Notes: a model not told the origin generated them from the sequence alone. A stretch of 64,000 nt of DNA from Candidatus Tectimicrobiota bacterium (GCA_016192135.1 JACPUR010000035.1:95056-159055); one strand, 5' to 3'. Positions 1 to 11,398 are shown, numbered from the stretch's first letter. Translations and numbers: made by a program.

Positions 1-1
1 C

Positions 2-304
2 GATTATAAGGGCAGCATGATGCAGCTCGGCGGCGTTAAGTGCGCGGATTGCCACATGGCGCGGGCGACCAAGACGGCCATCCAGAAAGGTCCGCACGAG
101 GCGGACATCCGGGCGCACCTCTTCAAGATCAGCCTCGACCCGGCGGCGAGCATGTTCACGCCGGACGGCAAGTTCGCGAAAGGTTTCCTCACGGTCGAGT
201 ATGCCTGTCTCGCCTGCCACGGCGGCAGGACCAAGGAATGGGCGATGGATGCCACCAAGAAGGGGATTCACGGCTACGGCAAAGCCGTCGCCGGAAAGAA
301 ATAG
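2..304 (+). CDS. multiheme c-type cytochrome, C-terminal fragment (5' end outside window)
   Basis: Open frame runs from the window edge. Two CxxCH heme motifs (CADCH, CLACH). Followed by further cytochrome genes on the same strand. Confidence 0.65.
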   Translation, partial: DYKGSMMQLGGVKCADCHMARATKTAIQKGPHEADIRAHLFKISLDPAASMFTPDGKFAKGFLTVEYACLACHGGRTKEWAMDATKKGIHGYGKAVAGKK

Positions 305-766
305 CTAAGCGCTTTCCTTCTTCGGCCCGCCGTGGCGGGGTTTCCCCGCCCGGCGGGCCGCCGCGCTTGCGGCGGTTTCATCCCGAGCGGCCGCCTCGCG
401 AGAAGAAAACACGCATTTCGGTTGCGGGGGTCCGGTTTCCGCCCTATTTTTGATCCGGTTCGGCCTTCCCCGCTTCGGGCGCCTCTCCGCAAGTTCGCCA
501 GAGATTACAGGCCGTCTCTGAAGGGGGCTTCATTGCCGAGGGAACGAACCATTTTCAAGCGCTTCCCGGGCGGGAGTCCCGCCCCGGCCGGAATCTACCT
601 GGAAGGGTGGTGGGAGCCGCCGATCTTTCAAGATGGAGGGGGCCGGTCCTTGCCCGGCCCCGCCGATCGAATCTTCCGCCGAATCCCTCCCCTGGCCGCG
701 CTCCTGATCTCCCCCGTGCTCGGCACCGTCTTCGTCCTCGGCTTCATCTTCCTCACCCTGGCCGCG

Positions 767-1873
767 ATGGCGATCATCCCCGTGAAGCTCATCCGCAGGG
801 GACGGGGCGGCCGCGCGGCGGGCCTCTTCCTGGCGGGCGCCGTCCTGCTGGGGGGGCCGGCAGCCTGGGGACAGGCGGTGTCGAACGAGATGTGCATCAA
901 CTGCCACAAGCTGCCGCTGCAGATGAAGCTGAAGGACGGCTCCAGCGTCTCCCTTCAGATTCCCGCCGCGGACTTCGGAAAGTCCGCGCACGGGAGTCTC
1001 CTGCTGTGCACGGCCTGCCACACCGATATCAAGAAGGTGCCCCACGACAAGCTTGAGTTCGAGGACCGGCGCGCTCTCAGCCTCCACTACAGCAGGGCGT
1101 GCACCTCCTGCCACGGCGGAAAGTTCAAGGAATTCCAGGAAGGGATCCACTGGCGCCTCCTCTCCGCAGGCGACCGCCGGGCGCCCCTGTGCGCGGACTG
1201 CCACGGCGCGCACGCGATCACCAAGGGAGGAGTCGCCAAGGGCTTCACCCCCCAGGCCTGCGCGAAGTGCCACGAGAAGCCCTACCGGCAATACGAGACC
1301 AGCGTTCATGGGCGGGGGCTCATCCAGAACGGGGCCAAGGATGTGCCCGGCTGCTCCACCTGCCATCCCTCCCACACGGGGCAGGACCCCCGGAAGATGG
1401 AGTTCCGCATCAACATTCCCCAGCTATGCGCCGACTGCCATCAAAACAAGCCGCTGATGGAGAAATACGGCCTCTCCTCTCAGGTCGTCTCGACTTATCT
1501 TGAGGATTTTCACGGTGCCTCGATCAGCCTCTACCGCGAGCAGCGGAACCTTCCCCCGCGCCTGACGGCGGTCTGCACCGATTGCCACGGCATCCACGAC
1601 ATCTTGCGGGTGAAGGACCCGGATTCGAAGGTCGTGCGCGAAAACCTGATGCGGACCTGCCAGAAGTGCCACCCGGACGCCTCGCTCAATTTCCCGGCGA
1701 GCTGGCTCTCGCACTATCCGCCGAGCACGACGCGCTATCCCTTGGTGTTCTTCCTCCGGCTGTTCTATTTCATCTTTGTCCCGGCGATCATCGCCTGCAT
1801 GCTCTTCCACGTCGGGCTCGACTTCGCCGCCGAGCTCCGCGCCCGGCGGCGGTCCCGGAAGGAGCGGGCATGA
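767..1873 (+). CDS. nonaheme c-type cytochrome, signal peptide plus C-terminal TM anchor
   Basis: Nine CxxCH motifs (CINCH, CTACH, CTSCH, CADCH, CAKCH, CSTCH, CADCH, CTDCH, CQKCH). Start chosen at ATG 767, which gives an N-terminal signal-like segment (RRGRGGRAAGLFLAGAVLLGGPAAWGQA). The ORF-track start at 332 gives an implausible Arg/Pro-rich extension. Hydrophobic C-terminus (FFLRLFYFIFVPAIIACMLF). The stop overlaps the next gene's start (ATGA). Confidence 0.8.
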   Translation: MAIIPVKLIRRGRGGRAAGLFLAGAVLLGGPAAWGQAVSNEMCINCHKLPLQMKLKDGSSVSLQIPAADFGKSAHGSLLLCTACHTDIKKVPHDKLEFEDRRALSLHYSRACTSCHGGKFKEFQEGIHWRLLSAGDRRAPLCADCHGAHAITKGGVAKGFTPQACAKCHEKPYRQYETSVHGRGLIQNGAKDVPGCSTCHPSHTGQDPRKMEFRINIPQLCADCHQNKPLMEKYGLSSQVVSTYLEDFHGASISLYREQRNLPPRLTAVCTDCHGIHDILRVKDPDSKVVRENLMRTCQKCHPDASLNFPASWLSHYPPSTTRYPLVFFLRLFYFIFVPAIIACMLFHVGLDFAAELRARRRSRKERA

Positions 1874-2631
1874 TGCCGCCGGAGGAGAAGGACGTGCGGG
1901 AGGAGGAGGGCTCCGTGCTGCGGTTCACGAGGAGGCAGCGGCTGGAGCATCACATCATGGCCGCCCTGTTCATCCTGCTGACGGTGACGGGCCTGCCACA
2001 GAAGTTCTCCGACGCCTTCTGGGCGGGCTCCGTGGTGCGGCTGATCGGCGACCTGGACCTGATGCGCTGGCTCCACCGGATGGCGGGTTTCGCCTTCGGC
2101 GGCTTCACCGTCTATTTCCTGGTCTTCGCGTCGCTCGACGTCCTCCGGGGGCGGGCGGCCCTCTCCATGGCCCCCTTCCTCTCGGACCTGAGGGAGGTCT
2201 ATCGCGGCCTCCTGTGGGCCGCCGGGCTGGGGCCGCGGCCGGCCGCCGGGCGCTTCGATTACCGGGAGAAGCTCGAGTTCTGGGGAATGCTCCTGGGGAG
2301 CGGCGTCATGATCCTGACCGGACTGATCCTCTACTTCCCGATTCAGGCCACCCGCTGGCTGCCCGGCCAGGTCATCCCCGTTGCCAAGACGGCGCACAGC
2401 TACGAGGCCATGCTGGCCCTCATGGTGATCGTCGTCTGGCACCTCTACAACGCCATGTTCCGGCCCGGCGTGTTCCCTCTGGACACCACGATCATCCACG
2501 GGCGCATGAGCCTCGGGCGCCTGCGGGAAGAGCACCCGCTCGAGTTCGAGCGCCTGTTTCCGGAGAAGGCCGCCGAGGAGGGCGAGGAAGAACGCCCGGC
2601 CCGCGGCGCCTCCGATCCCAGCCCCGCCTGA
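1870..2631 (+). CDS. di-heme cytochrome b membrane subunit (Ni/Fe-hydrogenase/FdnI-type cyt b family)
   Basis: ATG 1870 overlaps the upstream stop (ATGA). Four predicted TM helices with conserved His pairs (HHIMAAL, HRMAGF, HSYEAM, WHLYNAM), typical of PF01292-type cytochrome b. The in-frame upstream part of ORF 1582.. is rejected. Confidence 0.75.
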   Translation: MMPPEEKDVREEEGSVLRFTRRQRLEHHIMAALFILLTVTGLPQKFSDAFWAGSVVRLIGDLDLMRWLHRMAGFAFGGFTVYFLVFASLDVLRGRAALSMAPFLSDLREVYRGLLWAAGLGPRPAAGRFDYREKLEFWGMLLGSGVMILTGLILYFPIQATRWLPGQVIPVAKTAHSYEAMLALMVIVVWHLYNAMFRPGVFPLDTTIIHGRMSLGRLREEHPLEFERLFPEKAAEEGEEERPARGASDPSPA

Positions 2632-2771
2632 GGTCCGCCCGCCCCGGGGATTGGATGGTGAGCGGCGCCCGCCGCTTGCCAGCCGCCCGGAAGCGAGCAA
2701 TCATGCCGGCTCCGGACGCCGGGCCCCCGGGCGCGGCGGGCGTTCCCTTCATCTTCCATGCAGGAGGCACC

Positions 2772-3221
2772 ATGGCGATCAAGGCCCCGACGAAGCGCCG
2801 GTGGGCGCTGGTGGATTCGACGGCGATCGGAGTCGACAAGAAGTACGAGCCCCCTCTCATCATCGCCTGGGGAGTGGACAGCCACGCGGTGGGCACCCAG
2901 ACCATCACCATGGGCCGCACCATCATCCCCCCCAAGGCCCGGAACCAGCGCCACTACCACGTCTGCGACGCCACCTTCTATATCGTGCGGGGGCCCATCG
3001 TCGTGTGGATGGGAGAGGAGAAGGAGGAGCACACCGTCCCCACCGGCACTTTCGTTTACGCGGCGGCGGGCGAGATCCACGGCCTCTATAACCCGAGCGA
3101 GACCGAGGACGCCGAGCTCATCTTCACGTACGGCAACTGCCCGAACCGGGATGCCGCGCGAACTATCTATGTGGAGGAGGCGTGGCAGGAAGAGGACAAG
3201 CGGGATCGCATCCCGAAGTAG
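2772..3221 (+). CDS. cupin domain protein
   Basis: ATG preceded by GCAGGAGG. Cupin motifs (HxH...E, PxGxxH-like 'GEIHGLYN'). An alternative start at 2703 is possible. Confidence 0.6.
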   Translation: MAIKAPTKRRWALVDSTAIGVDKKYEPPLIIAWGVDSHAVGTQTITMGRTIIPPKARNQRHYHVCDATFYIVRGPIVVWMGEEKEEHTVPTGTFVYAAAGEIHGLYNPSETEDAELIFTYGNCPNRDAARTIYVEEAWQEEDKRDRIPK

Positions 3222-3238
3222 GCATCGGACGAACCAAG

Positions 3239-3270
3239 AAAAGCCGGCCCTTCGGGGCCGGCTTTTCTTG
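3239..3270 (+). terminator. rho-independent terminator after the cupin gene
   Basis: AAGCCGGCCC-TTCG-GGGCCGGCTT hairpin followed by TTCTTG. Confidence 0.6.
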
Positions 3271-3451: not shown

Positions 3452-3994
3452 TCAATTCAGCAGCGTCACGAGCTCCAGGAGCTGGCGCTTGAGAGTCTCC
3501 TCGTCCGCCGCCCGCCGGACGGCGCCGAGAATCTCGCTCGCGGCTTTCCCGTGCTCGCTGCGCTTCAGGTAGATGCGCGCGAGGTTCGTGTAGGGGAAGT
3601 GACGGGGATCATACCGAGGCGCCCGCTTTGCCTTCTCCAGCCACTCGATGGCCTGCTCCAGATCGCCCAACTGCATCAGATAGCAGCCGATGTCGTTGTA
3701 AGGATTCCCGAAATCGGGGTCGACCTCGATGGCGAGATGGCACTCCTCGATGGCCTCCTCGAGCCTGCCCTGCTTGCTGTACATCCAGCCCAGGTAGGTG
3801 TGGGCGTCCGCGGTGGGATGGTAGGCGAGAGAATTCTTGTACAGCTCGACCGCCCGATCGATTCTACCTCTCCGGTGCGCGCTTTCCGCCTCCGCCAGCA
3901 GCTCCAGGGCCTTTCTCAGCTCGGGATTCACCCGGGACTCTTCCCAGTATTTTTCCTCGAACGACATGGTAGGGAAGCTCTCTTGCATGGTCAC
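3452..3994 (-). CDS. tetratricopeptide (TPR) repeat protein
   Basis: Repeated A/Y/L TPR signature (AVELYKNSLAYHP, EAIEECHLAIEVDP, QAIEWLEKA). Confidence 0.6.
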   Translation of the reverse strand: MTMQESFPTMSFEEKYWEESRVNPELRKALELLAEAESAHRRGRIDRAVELYKNSLAYHPTADAHTYLGWMYSKQGRLEEAIEECHLAIEVDPDFGNPYNDIGCYLMQLGDLEQAIEWLEKAKRAPRYDPRHFPYTNLARIYLKRSEHGKAASEILGAVRRAADEETLKRQLLELVTLLN

Positions 3995-4169
3995 TGCCCT
4001 CCCTTGCGTCCGAAACCCGGCGGTGGATTTCAGACCTTATTCAATGTTAACGCGCCCGGCCCGGCTGTCAAGAAAGGCTCGTACGGGGAAGAGGGGGAGG
4101 GAAATCCCCGACCCAATGGAAAAAAAGCGCCCCAGCCGGACGGCCGGGGCGCCGCGCGCGTGAGCGCCT

Positions 4170-4652
4170 TCACTTTTTCGGGGGCGGCTTCCGGTATGTC
4201 CGGTGACAGCCTCCGCAGGTTCCCTGAACGTTCTTCAGGGCCGCCTCGGCGCCGTTCCTGTCGCCTGCCCGCAGGACCACCGCCAGCGAGGCGGCGGCGG
4301 TCCCGAGGTTCCTGGCCTTCTGATCGAAGTCCGCCTTGTTCTCCCAGATGACGGGGAGGGCGGTCGTCTGGCCCTCCAGGACTCTCTCCTTGAAAGCGTC
4401 AGGGATTCGCCGGGCCGATTGGGAAAGTGCATCAGCGGACTTGGCCGCGTCGGCGAGCCTGTTCTCCTTCATGGCCGCCTGAATGGCCCGGATGTTGCGC
4501 GGGTGGCTCTGCATCAGGTCCTTGCGGGCCTTCACCTGCGGATTCTCGTAGCCGATCAATTCGGCGAAGGAGAAGTCCTTCGTACATCCCGCGAGCAGCC
4601 CCACCGCCGCGACGAGGGCGGCGAGGGTGAAACCGGCACGCAGACTCTTCAT
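4170..4652 (-). CDS. cytochrome c' (class II c-type cytochrome) lipoprotein
   Basis: Start ATG 4652 with an AGGAG-like SD. Signal peptide plus lipobox (LLAGC). Single C-terminal heme site with the class-II tail (CGGCHRTYRKPPPKK). Helical, approx 160 aa. The longer ORF-track N-terminus is rejected. Confidence 0.65.
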   Translation of the reverse strand: MKSLRAGFTLAALVAAVGLLAGCTKDFSFAELIGYENPQVKARKDLMQSHPRNIRAIQAAMKENRLADAAKSADALSQSARRIPDAFKERVLEGQTTALPVIWENKADFDQKARNLGTAAASLAVVLRAGDRNGAEAALKNVQGTCGGCHRTYRKPPPKK

Positions 4653-10041: not shown

Positions 10042-10269
10042 TTAAAGCATCCCCAGGAAGTCATCCAGTTCGATTTCGGCTTGTTTGAGGATGTGAGCTA
10101 GGGTCGAGCGCTTGACAGGGCGGTGGGCAGGGACGACCAGCTTCAAGAGGTGTTCCCCCTCACGCTTTTGAAGCCGGATATGGCTCCCCCGTTGCCTCAC
10201 GACAATCCACCCTGTCCGTTGAAGGGCACGGACTACCTGGACATACGAAAGGCTGGGGACCCGCGTCAA
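10042..10269 (-). CDS. hicA: HicA-family toxin (mRNA interferase, YcfA-like)
   Basis: 75 aa. GSHIRL motif and basic fold typical of HicA. 4-nt overlap with the upstream hicB. Confidence 0.75.
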   Translation of the reverse strand: MTRVPSLSYVQVVRALQRTGWIVVRQRGSHIRLQKREGEHLLKLVVPAHRPVKRSTLAHILKQAEIELDDFLGML

Positions 10270-10469
10270 AGAACGAGTTCCATCACTTTGGCTTTTTCGG
10301 CCGGGAGGGCGTCATCCTCGGCAGATTCCAGATAAAGCTCGATGGCCTCGCGGATGTTGGCGAGGGCCTCCTCCTCGGTCTCCCCTTCGCTGACGCAGCC
10401 GGGGAGGGAGGGGGCATAGACCGTGAAGCCGCCTTCATCGCTGGGTTCGAGAATGATCTTGAGTTTCAT
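10266..10469 (-). CDS. hicB: HicB-family antitoxin (UPF0150)
   Basis: 67 aa. (FTVYAPSLPGCVSEGETEEEALANIREAIELYLE) is typical of HicB N-domain proteins. Confidence 0.7.
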   Translation of the reverse strand: MKLKIILEPSDEGGFTVYAPSLPGCVSEGETEEEALANIREAIELYLESAEDDALPAEKAKVMELVL

Positions 10470-10543: not shown

Positions 10544-11398
10544 TTACTCCGTGAACTCGGGCTCGATCCTCCTGGGCACGATCCCCGCCTCGTACGCCCT
10601 TCGCAGGAGAACGCGGACCGCCTCCTTGCCCCGCTCGCCGTAGCCCCGCGTCCAGTCGTTCACGTACATCCCGACGAAGCGGTCCGCCTTCTCCCGGGGG
10701 AGGTCACGCGCGTAGCGCATGGCGTGGTCGAGGGCCTCTTCCCGGTGGTCGAGGGCGTAGGCGATGCTCGCCGAGAGCAGCCGGCTCACCTCGCGCACCG
10801 CCTCGGGGCCCAGGTCCTTCCGGATGACGTTGCCGCCCAAGGGCAGGGGCAGGCCCGTCTCCTTCTTCCACCAGGCGCCCAGGTCCTCGACGAGGTGGAA
10901 GCCCTCCTCCGCGTAGGTGAGCTGGCCCTCGTGGATGAGGAGGCCGCAGGGCACGGAGCCCCCCGCCACCTCCTCCATGATCCGGTCGAAGGGGACGACG
11001 CGGTGTTGGGGCTCGGCTCCTCCCAGGTAGAGCCGGAGCGCGAGGTAGGCCGTGGTGAGGAGGCCCGGGACGGCGATCTCCGCGCCCCGCACCTCCTCCT
11101 TCACCATGGGCCGGCGCGCGACGAGGACGGGGCCGTAGCCATCCCCGAAGCTCGCCCCGTGGGGGAGGATGGCGTAGCGGTCCGCGAGGTGGCAGTAGGC
11201 GTGGAAGCTCACCGCGCTGACCTCGTAGGTCCCCTCGAAGGCGGCCCGGTTCAGCGTCTCGATGTCCCGGAGCTCGTGAACGAACTCATAGCGCCCGGTG
11301 CCGATCTTGCCGTTGGCGAGGGCGTGGAACATGAAGGCGTCGTCCGAGTCCGGGCTGTGGGCGACGCGGATGGTCCTTGGCGCGTCCTTCGCCCTCAT
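10544..11398 (-). CDS. mqnD: 1,4-dihydroxy-6-naphthoate synthase (MqnD), futalosine menaquinone pathway
   Basis: ATG 11398 overlaps the upstream stop (ATGA). (VAHSPDSDDAFMFHAL ... GASFGDGYGPVLVAR) matches the MqnA/MqnD (PF02621) pattern, closest to MqnD (HSPCPNDxFxFxAL). The 682-aa ORF-track extension is rejected. Confidence 0.6.
   Translation of the reverse strand: MRAKDAPRTIRVAHSPDSDDAFMFHALANGKIGTGRYEFVHELRDIETLNRAAFEGTYEVSAVSFHAYCHLADRYAILPHGASFGDGYGPVLVARRPMVKEEVRGAEIAVPGLLTTAYLALRLYLGGAEPQHRVVPFDRIMEEVAGGSVPCGLLIHEGQLTYAEEGFHLVEDLGAWWKKETGLPLPLGGNVIRKDLGPEAVREVSRLLSASIAYALDHREEALDHAMRYARDLPREKADRFVGMYVNDWTRGYGERGKEAVRVLLRRAYEAGIVPRRIEPEFTE

What the first reader, a model, noticed from the sequence alone, without database searches (positions are those of the whole stretch)
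1..3221. Cbc-type quinol:cytochrome c module: multiheme cyt c fragment, 9-heme cyt c, di-heme cyt b, translationally coupled, followed by a cupin
Three consecutive same-strand genes: a heme-binding C-terminal fragment, a nonaheme c-type cytochrome with a signal peptide and C-terminal TM anchor, and a 4-TM di-heme cytochrome b of the FdnI/Ni-Fe-hydrogenase-cyt-b family. The cyt c stop overlaps the cyt b start (ATGA). This architecture resembles the Geobacter-type Cbc menaquinol oxidoreductase complexes used for periplasmic or extracellular electron transfer. A cytochrome c' lipoprotein (4170-4652) and the futalosine-pathway gene mqnD (10544-11398) are nearby. The 5' end lies outside the window, so the module may be larger.
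Basis: partly seen in the sequence, partly recalled or inferred. Interest (0 to 1): 0.55.

Follow-up and report, generated by a model that had tools for sequence, protein, structure and literature searches.

The report
Split CbcL-type quinol–cytochrome c module
This is a two-gene version of the Geobacter CbcL membrane cytochrome: a nine-heme cytochrome c and a two-heme cytochrome b that link the membrane quinone pool to periplasmic electron carriers; it is real and widespread but an expected kind of respiratory module.

Summary
The window comes from a Candidatus Tectomicrobia MAG. It carries the last 100 residues of an octaheme cytochrome c (2-304), a nonaheme cytochrome c (ORF ending at 1873), a four-helix diheme cytochrome b (1870-2631, ATGA overlap at 1870-1873) and a cupin (2772-3221).

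The Cbc-type reading is supported and can be sharpened. Both proteins are collinear homologues of the two halves of a fused CbcL-type protein. The nonaheme matches at 26% identity with all nine hemes aligned (E=5e-30). The cytochrome b matches at 32% identity over its full length (E=5e-24), against 23% and E=1.6e-8 for FdnI. All four FdnI heme-ligand histidines and nine non-motif histidines are invariant in the family.

The nonaheme/cytochrome b pair is adjacent in 79 of 80 related loci from many phyla. Upstream DNA from a near-identical contig shows the module is not larger. The fragment is a 387-residue OcwA/MccA-like octaheme protein preceded by an M48 peptidase. There is no formate dehydrogenase or hydrogenase.

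Two corrections apply. The nonaheme gene most likely starts at TTG 533 (446 aa). Its N-terminus is a fused copy of an uncharacterised small membrane-protein family that elsewhere is a separate gene directly upstream of the pair.

Direction of electron flow and physiological partner remain unknown. Interest is modest.

The parts
2..304 (+). 3' end (last 100 codons plus stop) of a 387-aa octaheme cytochrome c. It has a signal peptide and eight CXXCH motifs; two of the motifs lie in the window, at nt 41-55 and 206-220.
   Evidence: full gene L002:1122-2285; L002 is 99.97% identical to the window. The family is 50-60% identical across phyla. AF2 model pLDDT 71. Best Foldseek matches are OcwA 6i5b (E 6.5e-12), 6qvm and MccA 4rkm. 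PDB sequence hits are 6i5b and 6qvm.
323..360 (+). Strong GC-rich hairpin just after the octaheme stop codon. It has no U-tract. It may be a transcript end or stabiliser separating the octaheme gene from the nonaheme/cytochrome b pair.
   Evidence: dG -41.8 kcal/mol, z -4.5, and 0 of 200 shuffles fold as well. A weak terminator-like site at 424-452 is not better than shuffles.
533..1873 (+). Nonaheme cytochrome c gene, most likely start TTG 533, 446 aa. It is the c-type half of a split CbcL-type oxidoreductase.
   Evidence: Nine CXXCH motifs plus nine invariant non-motif His in 81/81 sequences. BLASTP to the CbcL-type protein of L087: 26% identity over 317 aa, E=5e-30, all nine hemes collinear. 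Start: residues 1-114 are 71% identical to P0004, which starts at the equivalent TTG. The gene caller and NCBI used TTG 650 (407 aa).
533..805 (+). N-terminal 'X' module fused to the nonaheme. It has a soluble part with the GGSxAPxGIYLEGWWEPP motif, an about 30-residue Pro/Gly-rich hydrophobic stretch, and a basic loop (KLIRRGRGGR).
   Evidence: homologous to stand-alone 83-244 aa proteins with no Pfam or NCBIfam match. Stand-alone X lies directly upstream of the nonaheme and cytochrome b genes in L091, L095/L096 and L097. It also does so in 9 of 37 short-cytochrome-b loci.
806..877 (+). Signal-peptide-like hydrophobic segment (AAGLFLAGAVLLGGPAAWG|QA). An AxA-type cleavage motif is conserved in relatives.
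   Evidence: Read from the alignment (AWG-QA, AQA-QG, ARA-QG, VYA-QV, GYA-QA, GSA-QA). No signal-peptide predictor was available, so cleavage is inferred.
1742..1810 (+). C-terminal membrane anchor of the nonaheme (aa 404-422) followed by His426 (nt 1808-1810) and a basic cytoplasmic tail.
   Evidence: Hydropathy. An anchor His is present in the window clade and in 28 of 79 tabulated loci, including most short-cytochrome-b loci, and in the CbcL-type protein (WFHSILW). The literature notes a fifth candidate His in CbcL TM1 (bioRxiv 10.1101/2021.04.15.440034).
1870..1873 (+). ATGA overlap: the nonaheme stop TGA (1871-1873) overlaps the cytochrome b start ATG (1870-1872).
   Evidence: The projected start of the cytochrome b lies within a few tens of nt of the nonaheme stop in most related loci.
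1870..2631 (+). Diheme cytochrome b, 253 aa, four transmembrane helices, FdnI/HydC fold. It is the b-type half of the split CbcL-type oxidoreductase. Heme ligands: His27 (nt 1948-1950), His69 (2074-2076), His176 (2395-2397), His191 (2440-2442).
   Evidence: PF01292 61 bits. FdnI 1kqf_C alignment with all four ligand His matched. Invariance in the family. BLASTP to the CbcL-type protein: 32% identity over 259 aa, E=5e-24. BLASTP to FdnI: 23% identity, E=1.6e-8.
2772..3221 (+). Cupin_2 protein, 149 aa, no signal peptide, metal-binding His motifs. It is a conserved downstream neighbour in this clade only, and its function is unknown.
   Evidence: PF07883. Nearest solved structures are TM1459-type Mn cupins. 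It is 93-94% identical in L007 and L088, where the cytochromes are 52-78% identical. Its 90% cluster spans Tectomicrobia and Nitrospinaceae. It is absent downstream of the pair in 79 of the 80 loci from the genome scan.
3235..3270 (.). Perfect 16-bp hairpin flanked by an A-run and a U-run. It is a likely bidirectional terminator closing the nonaheme-cytochrome b-cupin unit and the convergent TPR gene.
   Evidence: dG -32.1 kcal/mol, z -5.0, and 0 of 200 shuffles fold as well.
3452..4652 (-). TPR protein (3452-3994) and cytochrome c' lipoprotein (4170-4652). Their synteny with the module is conserved only within the Tectomicrobia/Nitrospinota clade. They are not shown to belong to it.
   Evidence: Pfam. 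Synteny in L007 and L088-L090.

Best explanation
Genes 533-1873 and 1870-2631 encode a two-subunit, split form of the CbcL-type (Cbc1) membrane cytochrome bc.

The cytochrome b is an FdnI/HydC-fold four-helix protein with both termini in the cytoplasm. It should bind two b hemes stacked across the membrane. His69 and His176 would hold the heme near the periplasm. His27 and His191 would hold the heme near the cytoplasm.

The nonaheme protein sits in the periplasm on a C-terminal helix. It carries nine bis-His c hemes that act as a wire.

Electrons pass between menaquinol/menaquinone, the two b hemes, the nine c hemes and soluble periplasmic redox proteins. The organism carries the futalosine-pathway gene mqnD nearby. 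By analogy with the HQNO site of FdnI, the quinone site lies in the conserved cytoplasmic TM2-TM3 loop next to the inner heme.

What is shown:
- Gene structure, heme-motif and ligand conservation.
- Homology to CbcL-type proteins.
- Obligatory pairing of the two genes across phyla.

What is inferred:
- Heme occupancy and the location of the quinone site.
- Complex formation.
- Direction of flow (quinol oxidation as proposed for Geobacter CbcL, or quinone reduction as proposed for MtoC).
- The partner protein. The neighbouring octaheme OcwA/MccA-like cytochrome and the cytochrome c' are candidates only.

The N-terminal X module of the nonaheme is probably an accessory subunit or assembly element. 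Here it is made as one precursor and separated by signal peptidase.
For: 1. Architecture and motifs: nine CXXCH, a C-terminal anchor, the ATGA overlap and PF01292.
2. The four FdnI ligand His are matched residue for residue. His27 and His69 are invariant in 80/80 sequences. His176 and His191 are invariant in 76/80; of the other four, three are truncated at those columns and one carries a different residue.
3. Nine non-motif His are invariant in 81/81 nonaheme sequences. This matches the all-bis-His nonaheme domain measured for CbcL (PMC9129911).
4. There is full-length collinear similarity of both proteins to a CbcL-type fusion protein (L087:4799-6654). The nonaheme gives E=5e-30. The cytochrome b gives E=5e-24 at 32% identity, against 23% identity and E=1.6e-8 for FdnI. 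That L087 protein matches the published CbcL alignment fragments (WP_010940947.1) in the b domain.
5. A cytochrome b homologue lies directly downstream of the nonaheme gene in 79 of 80 loci. These come from Chloroflexota, Nitrospirota, Acidobacteriota, Anaeromyxobacteraceae, Tectomicrobia, Nitrospinota and others. The 80th contig ends at the gene.
6. The charge distribution of the loops fits FdnI topology (read).
7. mqnD is present at 10544-11398.
Against: - No biochemical or expression data exist for this protein or for any split homologue that I could find.
- The genuine G. sulfurreducens CbcL sequence could not be retrieved. The comparison rests on a metagenomic CbcL-type gene with one frameshift that I repaired by eye, and on noisy OCR fragments of the published alignment.
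- Identity to the CbcL-type nonaheme domain is only 26%.
- The window cytochrome b lacks the extra C-terminal helix of CbcL. It also lacks the TM2 His83 found in 75 of 80 family members, so its cofactor arrangement may differ in detail.
- The AF2 model of the nonaheme was poor (pLDDT 68) and the fold search with it was uninformative.
- Direction of electron flow cannot be read from sequence.
Confidence: 0.8

Rival explanations
1. Same complex, opposite physiological direction. It takes electrons from periplasmic donors through the nonaheme wire and reduces menaquinone at the cytoplasmic side. That would be a proton-motive redox-loop half like FdnI, or like the role proposed for MtoC in iron oxidisers.
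For: - The cytochrome b has FdnI topology, and the loop equivalent to the FdnI quinone-reduction site is conserved (R128, K134, E136, Y137).
- The CbcL c-domain midpoint potential (-194 mV, PMC13591261 and PMC9129911) is below that of menaquinone.
- CbcL/MtoC/MtrH homologues occur in both metal reducers and metal oxidisers (PMC6295460).
- The family occurs in a Mn-oxidising Nitrospirota MAG (L042).
Against: - No periplasmic dehydrogenase or oxidising enzyme is encoded next to the pair in the window.
- Geobacter genetics assign CbcL to quinol oxidation toward low-potential acceptors (PMC13591261).
- Heme potentials of this protein are unknown.
Confidence: 0.3
2. The pair is the dedicated quinol dehydrogenase of the upstream octaheme cytochrome. 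That cytochrome would be a catalytic terminal reductase (nitrite, hydroxylamine, sulfite or metal). The pair would then play the role that NrfH or NrfBCD plays for NrfA.
For: - The octaheme is on the same strand directly upstream. This is so in the window and in the Tectomicrobia relative L088, and in L028, L031, L053, L062 and L084.
- Its fold is nearest to OcwA and MccA.
- It has only seven invariant non-motif His for eight hemes, so one heme may have an open or unusual distal site.
- The family is unusually conserved across phyla, at 50-60% identity.
Against: - A close octaheme homologue is adjacent in only about 5 of 80 loci from the genome scan.
- In the window it is separated by 228 nt and a strong hairpin.
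- In L088 a divergently transcribed 713-aa multiheme gene lies between them.
- No catalytic residue was identified. The AF2 model has no hemes and moderate confidence.
Confidence: 0.25
3. The module is the inner-membrane entry point of an extracellular electron transfer pathway, as CbcL is in Geobacter.
For: - Homology to CbcL/MtrH/MtoC.
- In many related loci the pair sits among large multiheme cytochromes (24 loci with NapC/NirT-type, 15 with about 724-aa multihemes).
Against: - The 64-kb window holds no other multiheme gene.
- It holds none of the typical neighbours.
- It holds no porin-cytochrome genes.
- The family occurs in many lineages with no known extracellular respiration.
Confidence: 0.1
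4. The cytochrome b is an ordinary gamma subunit of a formate dehydrogenase-N or [NiFe] hydrogenase, and the cytochrome c genes are unrelated neighbours.
For: Weak NCBIfam hits to formate dehydrogenase gamma models, all far below their cut-offs (57.6 vs 115.9 bits, 48.5 vs 341 bits).
Against: - No FdnG/H or hydrogenase genes occur upstream or anywhere nearby.
- The gene is translationally coupled to the nonaheme gene.
- The same pairing occurs in 79 of 80 loci.
- It is closer to the CbcL b domain than to FdnI.
Confidence: 0.02

Closest known systems
CbcL (Cbc1, GSU0274) of Geobacter sulfurreducens and the CbcL/MtoC/MtrH family
   Same: - An N-terminal periplasmic domain with nine CXXCH hemes and a full set of conserved distal His.
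- A membrane helix after the heme domain that carries a His.
- A HydC/FdnI-type diheme cytochrome b with the two-His helix.
- Both halves align collinearly with a CbcL-type protein.
- The literature description matches (PMC6295460, PMC9129911, bioRxiv 10.1101/2021.04.15.440034).
   Different: - It is encoded as two overlapping genes instead of one fusion.
- The cytochrome b has four helices and an acidic tail, where CbcL has an extra C-terminal helix.
- The heme domain is about 40 residues longer.
- An unrelated small membrane module (X) is fused to the N-terminus.
- Identity is only 26-32%.
- The host is a Tectomicrobia MAG with no known metal respiration.
CbcBA (Cbc5) of Geobacter sulfurreducens
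   Same: Two separate subunits: a multiheme c anchored by a C-terminal helix that carries a His, plus a four-helix diheme b. It is proposed to be a menaquinol:periplasmic cytochrome oxidoreductase (bioRxiv 10.1101/2021.04.15.440034).
   Different: CbcA has seven hemes. According to the authors, CbcB shares no sequence homology with the CbcL b domain and has only three ligand His, with the fourth supplied by CbcA. The b protein here has all four.
FdnI, gamma subunit of E. coli formate dehydrogenase-N (PDB 1KQF)
   Same: Same fold family (PF01292) and the same four heme-ligand His positions. The same topology is inferred, and the loop at the quinone (HQNO) site is conserved.
   Different: Identity is 23%. 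The partner is a nonaheme cytochrome c, not a molybdoenzyme/Fe-S pair. No fdnGH genes are present.
OcwA of Thermincola potens (PDB 6I5B) and MccA of Wolinella succinogenes (PDB 4RKM), for the upstream octaheme
   Same: They are the best structural and sequence matches of the 387-aa octaheme. All are multiheme proteins of the NrfA/OTR-related group.
   Different: The octaheme has eight hemes in about 350 mature residues, against nine in about 500 residues (OcwA) or eight in about 700 (MccA). TM-scores are only about 0.5 and identity 17-22%. There is no CX15CH motif and no evidence of the MccA copper site. Its function is untested.

Membership tests
CbcL/MtoC/MtrH-type cytochrome bc (Cbc1) | Periplasmic c-type domain with nine CXXCH motifs, collinear with that of CbcL | tested here: met
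   Nine motifs. BLASTP to the CbcL-type protein of L087 gives 26% identity over 317 aa, E=5e-30, and spans all nine hemes.
CbcL/MtoC/MtrH-type cytochrome bc (Cbc1) | All c hemes bis-His coordinated (conserved distal His, no conserved Met ligand) | tested here: met
   Nine non-motif His are invariant in 81/81 sequences. This tests conservation only, not spectroscopy. One Met (M309) is also conserved in 79/81.
CbcL/MtoC/MtrH-type cytochrome bc (Cbc1) | HydC/FdnI-type diheme cytochrome b with conserved heme-ligand His, including two on one helix | tested here: met
   PF01292. His27, His69, His176 and His191 equal FdnI His18, His57, His155 and His169. They are invariant in the family. Identity to the CbcL-type b domain is 32%, E=5e-24.
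CbcL/MtoC/MtrH-type cytochrome bc (Cbc1) | c and b domains fused in one polypeptide with six transmembrane helices | tested here: not met
   There are two genes overlapping by ATGA. The total is one anchor helix plus four b helices. The sixth, C-terminal helix of the CbcL type is absent. For this reason it is filed as a split variant, not as CbcL proper.
CbcL/MtoC/MtrH-type cytochrome bc (Cbc1) | Candidate fifth His in the helix that follows the heme domain | tested here: met
   His426 in LFHVGLD, against WFHSILW in the CbcL-type protein. Its role is unknown in either protein.
CbcL/MtoC/MtrH-type cytochrome bc (Cbc1) | Menaquinol oxidation feeding periplasmic cytochromes, needed for low-potential extracellular acceptors | not testable with these tools
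   This needs genetics or biochemistry. The only context evidence is mqnD nearby and the lack of any outer-membrane conduit in the window.
Formate dehydrogenase-N / [NiFe] hydrogenase gamma subunit (FdnI/HydC proper) | Encoded with, and anchoring, the catalytic and Fe-S subunits of a formate dehydrogenase or hydrogenase | tested here: not met
   Upstream are a nonaheme, an octaheme and an M48 peptidase. NCBIfam formate dehydrogenase gamma hits are far below their cut-offs.
NrfA/OTR/MccA/OcwA-type catalytic multiheme cytochromes (for the octaheme at 2-304) | Related fold with a heme that lacks a standard distal His | tested here: inconclusive
   Foldseek to OcwA and MccA gives E 1e-9 to 1e-12 but TM about 0.5, from a pLDDT-71 model. 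There are seven invariant non-motif His for eight hemes. No active-site residues were identified.

The most novel reading that the evidence does not exclude
The uncharacterised small membrane protein X is a genuine third component of a widespread three-part quinone-cytochrome c module: X, nonaheme c and diheme b. X could be a subunit, an assembly factor or a regulator. It has a GxY...W motif followed by a Pro/Gly-rich hydrophobic stretch.

In the Tectomicrobia/Nitrospinota clade, X would be made as a cleavable pre-domain fused in front of the nonaheme signal peptide. One precursor would then yield a cytoplasm-facing membrane protein and a periplasmic cytochrome.

A related open point concerns the extra conserved His residues. 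These are TM2 His83 in most homologues and the anchor-helix His here and in CbcL. They may mark an alternative or third heme or quinone site.
Probability: 0.35. Interest if true: 0.5.

Novelty: new variant of a known kind. Interest (0 to 1): 0.35.

Why it matters
CbcL-type cytochromes are one of the few known ways that bacteria move electrons from the quinone pool into the periplasm without a bc1 complex. They have been studied only in Geobacter, and only as single fused proteins.

The data here show that the same machinery exists as a two-gene unit, often a three-gene unit. They span Chloroflexota, Nitrospirota, Acidobacteriota, Myxococcota, Tectomicrobia and Nitrospinota. These genes are currently annotated only as 'cytochrome c3 family' and 'cytochrome b/b6 domain' proteins.

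Recognising the unit improves respiratory-chain annotation of uncultured lineages. It also provides naturally separated subunits that may be easier to express and study than the fusion. For this particular window the gain is correct annotation rather than new biology.

Tried and rejected
1. Retrieving G. sulfurreducens CbcL. The only text source was OCR of the supplementary alignment of PMC9129911. A database search with those fragments returned only short, partial CbcL-type proteins. I therefore recovered a CbcL-type gene from contig L087 and repaired one frameshift by eye.
2. The fold search with the AF2 model of the nonaheme was uninformative. The model had pLDDT 68. The best hit was HAO 6t5e (E=1.4e-3, TM 0.31).
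3. The best solved-structure sequence match of the nonaheme is 28pb_A 'Cytochrome c'. It could not be identified because it is absent from the fold library.
4. The formate dehydrogenase or hydrogenase reading was rejected on context.
5. I checked whether loss of cytochrome b His83 is compensated by the anchor-helix His. It is not a swap, because 27 loci have both.
6. I looked in the window for the typical neighbours of the family: HisKA_3/LuxR two-component system, NapC/NirT multiheme, Fer4/NrfD, M56 peptidase and cytochrome b6. None is present.
7. One literature search with loose term logic returned only community-survey papers. A Manganitrophus paper does not mention the module.
8. Three context look-ups for stand-alone X proteins hit contigs too short to be informative.
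9. The weak terminator-like site at 424-452 is no better than shuffles.

Full report
**What is in the sequence**

The window has about 68% G+C. It comes from a Candidatus Tectomicrobia metagenome-assembled genome. Its nonaheme, cytochrome b, cupin and cytochrome c' proteins are exact matches to NCBI MAG proteins on a 261-kb contig.

On the + strand, the first 3.3 kb hold the following genes.

- Octaheme fragment, 2-304. It encodes the last 100 residues of a c-type cytochrome with two CXXCH motifs.
- Nonaheme gene, an ORF ending at 1873. It has exactly nine CXXCH motifs and a C-terminal hydrophobic helix followed by a basic tail.
- Cytochrome b gene, 1870-2631. Its ATG overlaps the preceding TGA as ATGA, and an AGGAG lies 8 nt upstream. 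The 253-residue product matches PF01292 at 61 bits.
- Cupin gene, 2772-3221. It is a Cupin_2 protein with its own AGGAGG.
- Terminator-like hairpin, 3235-3270. It is a perfect 16-bp hairpin with flanking A and U runs that closes the unit.

On the opposite strand lie a TPR protein (3452-3994) and a cytochrome c' lipoprotein (4170-4652). Further on are a HicAB pair and mqnD (10544-11398, PF02621 at 252 bits), which belongs to the futalosine pathway to menaquinone.

**Upstream of the window**

An exact-sequence look-up of the cytochrome b found six independent assemblies of the same locus. Contig L002 is 99.97% identical to the window and extends 1,981 nt further upstream.

The truncated gene turns out to be a 387-residue octaheme cytochrome c with a signal peptide. 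It is preceded by an M48 peptidase lipoprotein gene. The module is therefore not larger.

The octaheme gene is separated from the nonaheme gene by 228 nt. This gap contains a very stable GC hairpin at 323-360 (dG -41.8 kcal/mol, z -4.5). Only the nonaheme and cytochrome b genes are translationally coupled.

**The cytochrome b**

phmmer aligns it with FdnI of E. coli formate dehydrogenase-N (1kqf_C). His27, His69, His176 and His191 fall on FdnI His18, His57, His155 and His169. From my knowledge of the 1KQF structure, these are the ligands of the inner and outer b hemes.

I extracted 79 homologues from related loci. His27 and His69 are invariant in 80/80 sequences. His176 and His191 are invariant in 76/80; of the other four sequences, three are truncated at those columns and one carries a different residue.

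The positive charges of the N-terminus, the TM2-TM3 loop and the C-terminal region fit FdnI topology, with both ends in the cytoplasm. The TM2-TM3 loop aligns with the loop that forms the quinone (HQNO) site of FdnI. It carries family-conserved residues R128, K134, E136 and Y137. Placing the quinone site there is an inference.

**The nonaheme and the link to CbcL**

The nonaheme belongs to a very large family.

- 777 database proteins score below 1e-5 among the 8,000 candidates scored.
- All nine motif His and nine further His are invariant in 81/81 sequences, which fits nine bis-His hemes.

The literature describes G. sulfurreducens CbcL as follows. It has nine bis-His c hemes in residues 30-279. 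These are fused to a six-helix HydC/FdnI-type diheme b with five candidate ligand His (PMC6295460; PMC9129911; bioRxiv 10.1101/2021.04.15.440034).

I could not obtain GSU0274 itself. Fragments of the published alignment led to CbcL-type b-domain proteins. These led to contig L087, which carries a CbcL-type gene next to ResB/CcsA, a triheme c7-like gene and a NapC/NirT-type gene. After repair of one frameshift it encodes 618 residues, with nine hemes, an anchor helix and a b domain.

| Window protein | Compared with | Identity | Aligned length | E-value | Note |
|---|---|---|---|---|---|
| Nonaheme | CbcL-type protein (L087) | 26% | 317 aa | 5e-30 | all nine hemes aligned |
| Cytochrome b | CbcL-type protein (L087) | 32% | 259 aa | 5e-24 | full length |
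| Cytochrome b | FdnI | 23% | 218 aa | 1.6e-8 | |

Shared motifs include RRFxRR...H...TGLPxKFS, GPxPxxxRxxYxEK, HSxEAxLA and FPxD.

The helix after the heme domain carries a His in both proteins: LFHVGLD here and WFHSILW in the CbcL type. The window pair is thus a split CbcL-type module. It differs in three ways. It is encoded as two genes. It lacks the extra C-terminal helix of CbcL. It also carries an extra N-terminal module, described below.

**Conservation of the pair**

In 79 of the 80 best related loci a cytochrome b homologue starts within a few tens of nucleotides of the nonaheme stop. The 80th contig ends there. The loci come from Anaerolineae, Dehalococcoidia, Nitrospirota (including a Mn-oxidiser MAG), Acidobacteriota, Anaeromyxobacteraceae, Binatia, Tectomicrobia and Nitrospinota.

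By contrast, a close homologue of the octaheme is directly upstream in only about five of these loci, plus the Tectomicrobia relative L088. The cupin/TPR/cytochrome c' arrangement is confined to L007 and L088-L090.

The commonest neighbours elsewhere are these:

| Neighbour | Loci (of 80) |
|---|---|
| HisKA_3 histidine kinase | 43 |
| LuxR-type response regulator | 41 |
| Large NapC/NirT-type multiheme protein | 24 |
| Fer4 protein | 22 |
| NrfD protein | 21 |
| M56/M48 peptidase | 19 |

None of these is in the window. No other multiheme gene occurs in the 64 kb.

**The N-terminus of the nonaheme**

Gene callers started the protein at TTG 650, giving 407 aa. Relatives at 55-82% identity conserve the sequence further upstream (FKRFPGGSPAPAGIYLEGWWEPP), and their genes start at the equivalent of TTG 533. 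The best start is therefore TTG 533, giving 446 aa. A GGGGG lies 5 nt upstream of it.

A full HMMER search with residues 1-116 found the close relative at E=2e-38. It also found 26 stand-alone proteins of 83-244 residues that share the same module, sometimes in tandem. They have no Pfam or NCBIfam match.

Wherever such a protein lay on an informative contig, a nonaheme-type gene follows it directly. On the contigs that extend far enough, a cytochrome b gene follows that (L091, L095/L096; L097 ends inside the nonaheme gene). One short contig shows a response regulator on the opposite strand instead.

Searching from the nonaheme side, the module is directly upstream in 9 of 37 loci with a short cytochrome b. 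It is elsewhere in the locus in 5 and fused in 1. It occurs in only 1 of 42 loci with a long cytochrome b. It is also fused in the window and in L088-L090.

After the module comes a basic loop and a second hydrophobic stretch that ends in a conserved AxA-type site before Gln. I infer that the precursor is cut there, releasing the module from the periplasmic cytochrome. This is untested, and the membrane topology of the module is unresolved. AF2 drew it as one long low-confidence helix.

**The octaheme**

Its family is 50-60% identical across Thermotogota, Firmicutes, Nitrospirota, Armatimonadota and even archaea. It has eight invariant CXXCH motifs but only seven invariant non-motif His.

An AF2 model (pLDDT 71) is most like OcwA (6i5b, E=6.5e-12), the C. 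ferrireducens S-layer undecaheme (6qvm) and MccA (4rkm), with TM-scores near 0.5. It may be a catalytic or terminal cytochrome that takes electrons from the pair. The genomic link is loose and nothing catalytic was identified.

**How it most likely works**

1. Menaquinol and menaquinone exchange electrons with the inner b heme at a cytoplasm-side site.
2. Electrons cross the membrane through the two b hemes.
3. They enter the nine-heme wire held on the anchor helix.
4. They leave to soluble periplasmic partners.

Because the transfer crosses the membrane, it is electrogenic. The direction decides whether the step consumes or builds membrane potential. Geobacter genetics favour quinol oxidation for CbcL. 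The homologues MtoC and MtrH and the FdnI precedent show that the reverse is equally possible (PMC6295460). The direction here is open.

**Comparison with what is known, and verdict**

The module works like CbcL, and by homology belongs with it. It fails the defining feature 'single fused polypeptide with six helices', so I file it as a split variant of a known kind.

I found no paper describing the split form or the X module. Joshi et al. note that Geobacter genomes hold many uncharacterised clusters with a diheme b next to a multiheme c, reminiscent of CbcL. The finding is solid and improves annotation, but it is what a specialist would expect from such a gene pair. Interest is 0.35.

Noticed in passing
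window 533-805; loci L091:5001-5429, L095:4001-4342, L097:340-1074: An uncharacterised small membrane-protein family ('X') is fused to the N-terminus of the nonaheme here. It has a GxY...W motif plus a Pro/Gly-rich hydrophobic stretch and no Pfam or NCBIfam match. Elsewhere it is a separate gene directly upstream of the nonaheme/cytochrome b pair, sometimes duplicated in tandem.
   Followed up: yes
window 2772-3221; L007:2541-2987; L088:10175-10609: The cupin is 93-94% identical between genomes whose neighbouring cytochromes are only 52-78% identical. Its 90%-identity cluster (75 members) spans Tectomicrobia and Nitrospinaceae. Such strong constraint on a 149-aa protein of unknown function is unexplained. 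The adjacent TPR protein is also unusually conserved, at 82-85% identity.
   Followed up: partly
window 2116-2118 (cytochrome b residue 83) and 1808-1810 (nonaheme His426): 75 of 80 family members have a His in TM2 of the cytochrome b, 14 residues below the ligand His69. The window has Phe there and L007 has Tyr. A His in the anchor helix of the nonaheme is present here, in 28 of 79 tabulated loci including most short-cytochrome-b loci, and in the CbcL-type protein. It is largely absent from the Anaerolineae-type loci. The two features are not a simple swap, because 27 loci have both.
   Followed up: partly
L048:9023-10261, L008:8974-10506 and other Chloroflexota loci: In Anaerolineae-type loci the cytochrome b is 380-580 residues long because c-type cytochrome domains (mono- or multiheme) are fused to its C-terminus. 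Several of these loci also carry a second FdnI-type cytochrome b directly upstream of the nonaheme gene.
   Followed up: partly
L088:5569-7710 (minus strand), compared with window 305-532: The closest sequenced relative has a 713-aa NapC/NirT-domain multiheme gene, transcribed divergently, between the octaheme and nonaheme genes. The window has only 228 nt with a GC hairpin at that place.
   Followed up: partly
80 related loci (L007-L086): A HisKA_3 histidine kinase and a LuxR-type response regulator are the most frequent neighbours of the pair (43 and 41 of 80 loci). They flank X-nonaheme-cytochrome b in L091 and L095. No such regulator is present in the window.
   Followed up: partly
window 10042-10469 (-): A HicA toxin / HicB antitoxin pair (PF07927, PF15919) lies between an ABC transporter operon and mqnD.
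   Followed up: no
PDB entry 28pb chain A: The best solved-structure sequence match of the nonaheme is a 278-residue chain labelled only 'Cytochrome c' (E=6e-6; 6e-10 with the family profile). It aligns over the first six hemes. It was absent from the fold library, so I could not tell what it is; it might be a CbcL-type domain.
   Followed up: no
L087:5950-6010: The CbcL-type gene used for comparison is split into 401-aa and 217-aa calls by a frameshift in the metagenomic contig. Several database 'proteins' of 170-220 aa annotated as the cytochrome b subunit of formate dehydrogenase are such C-terminal pieces of CbcL-type genes.
   Followed up: partly
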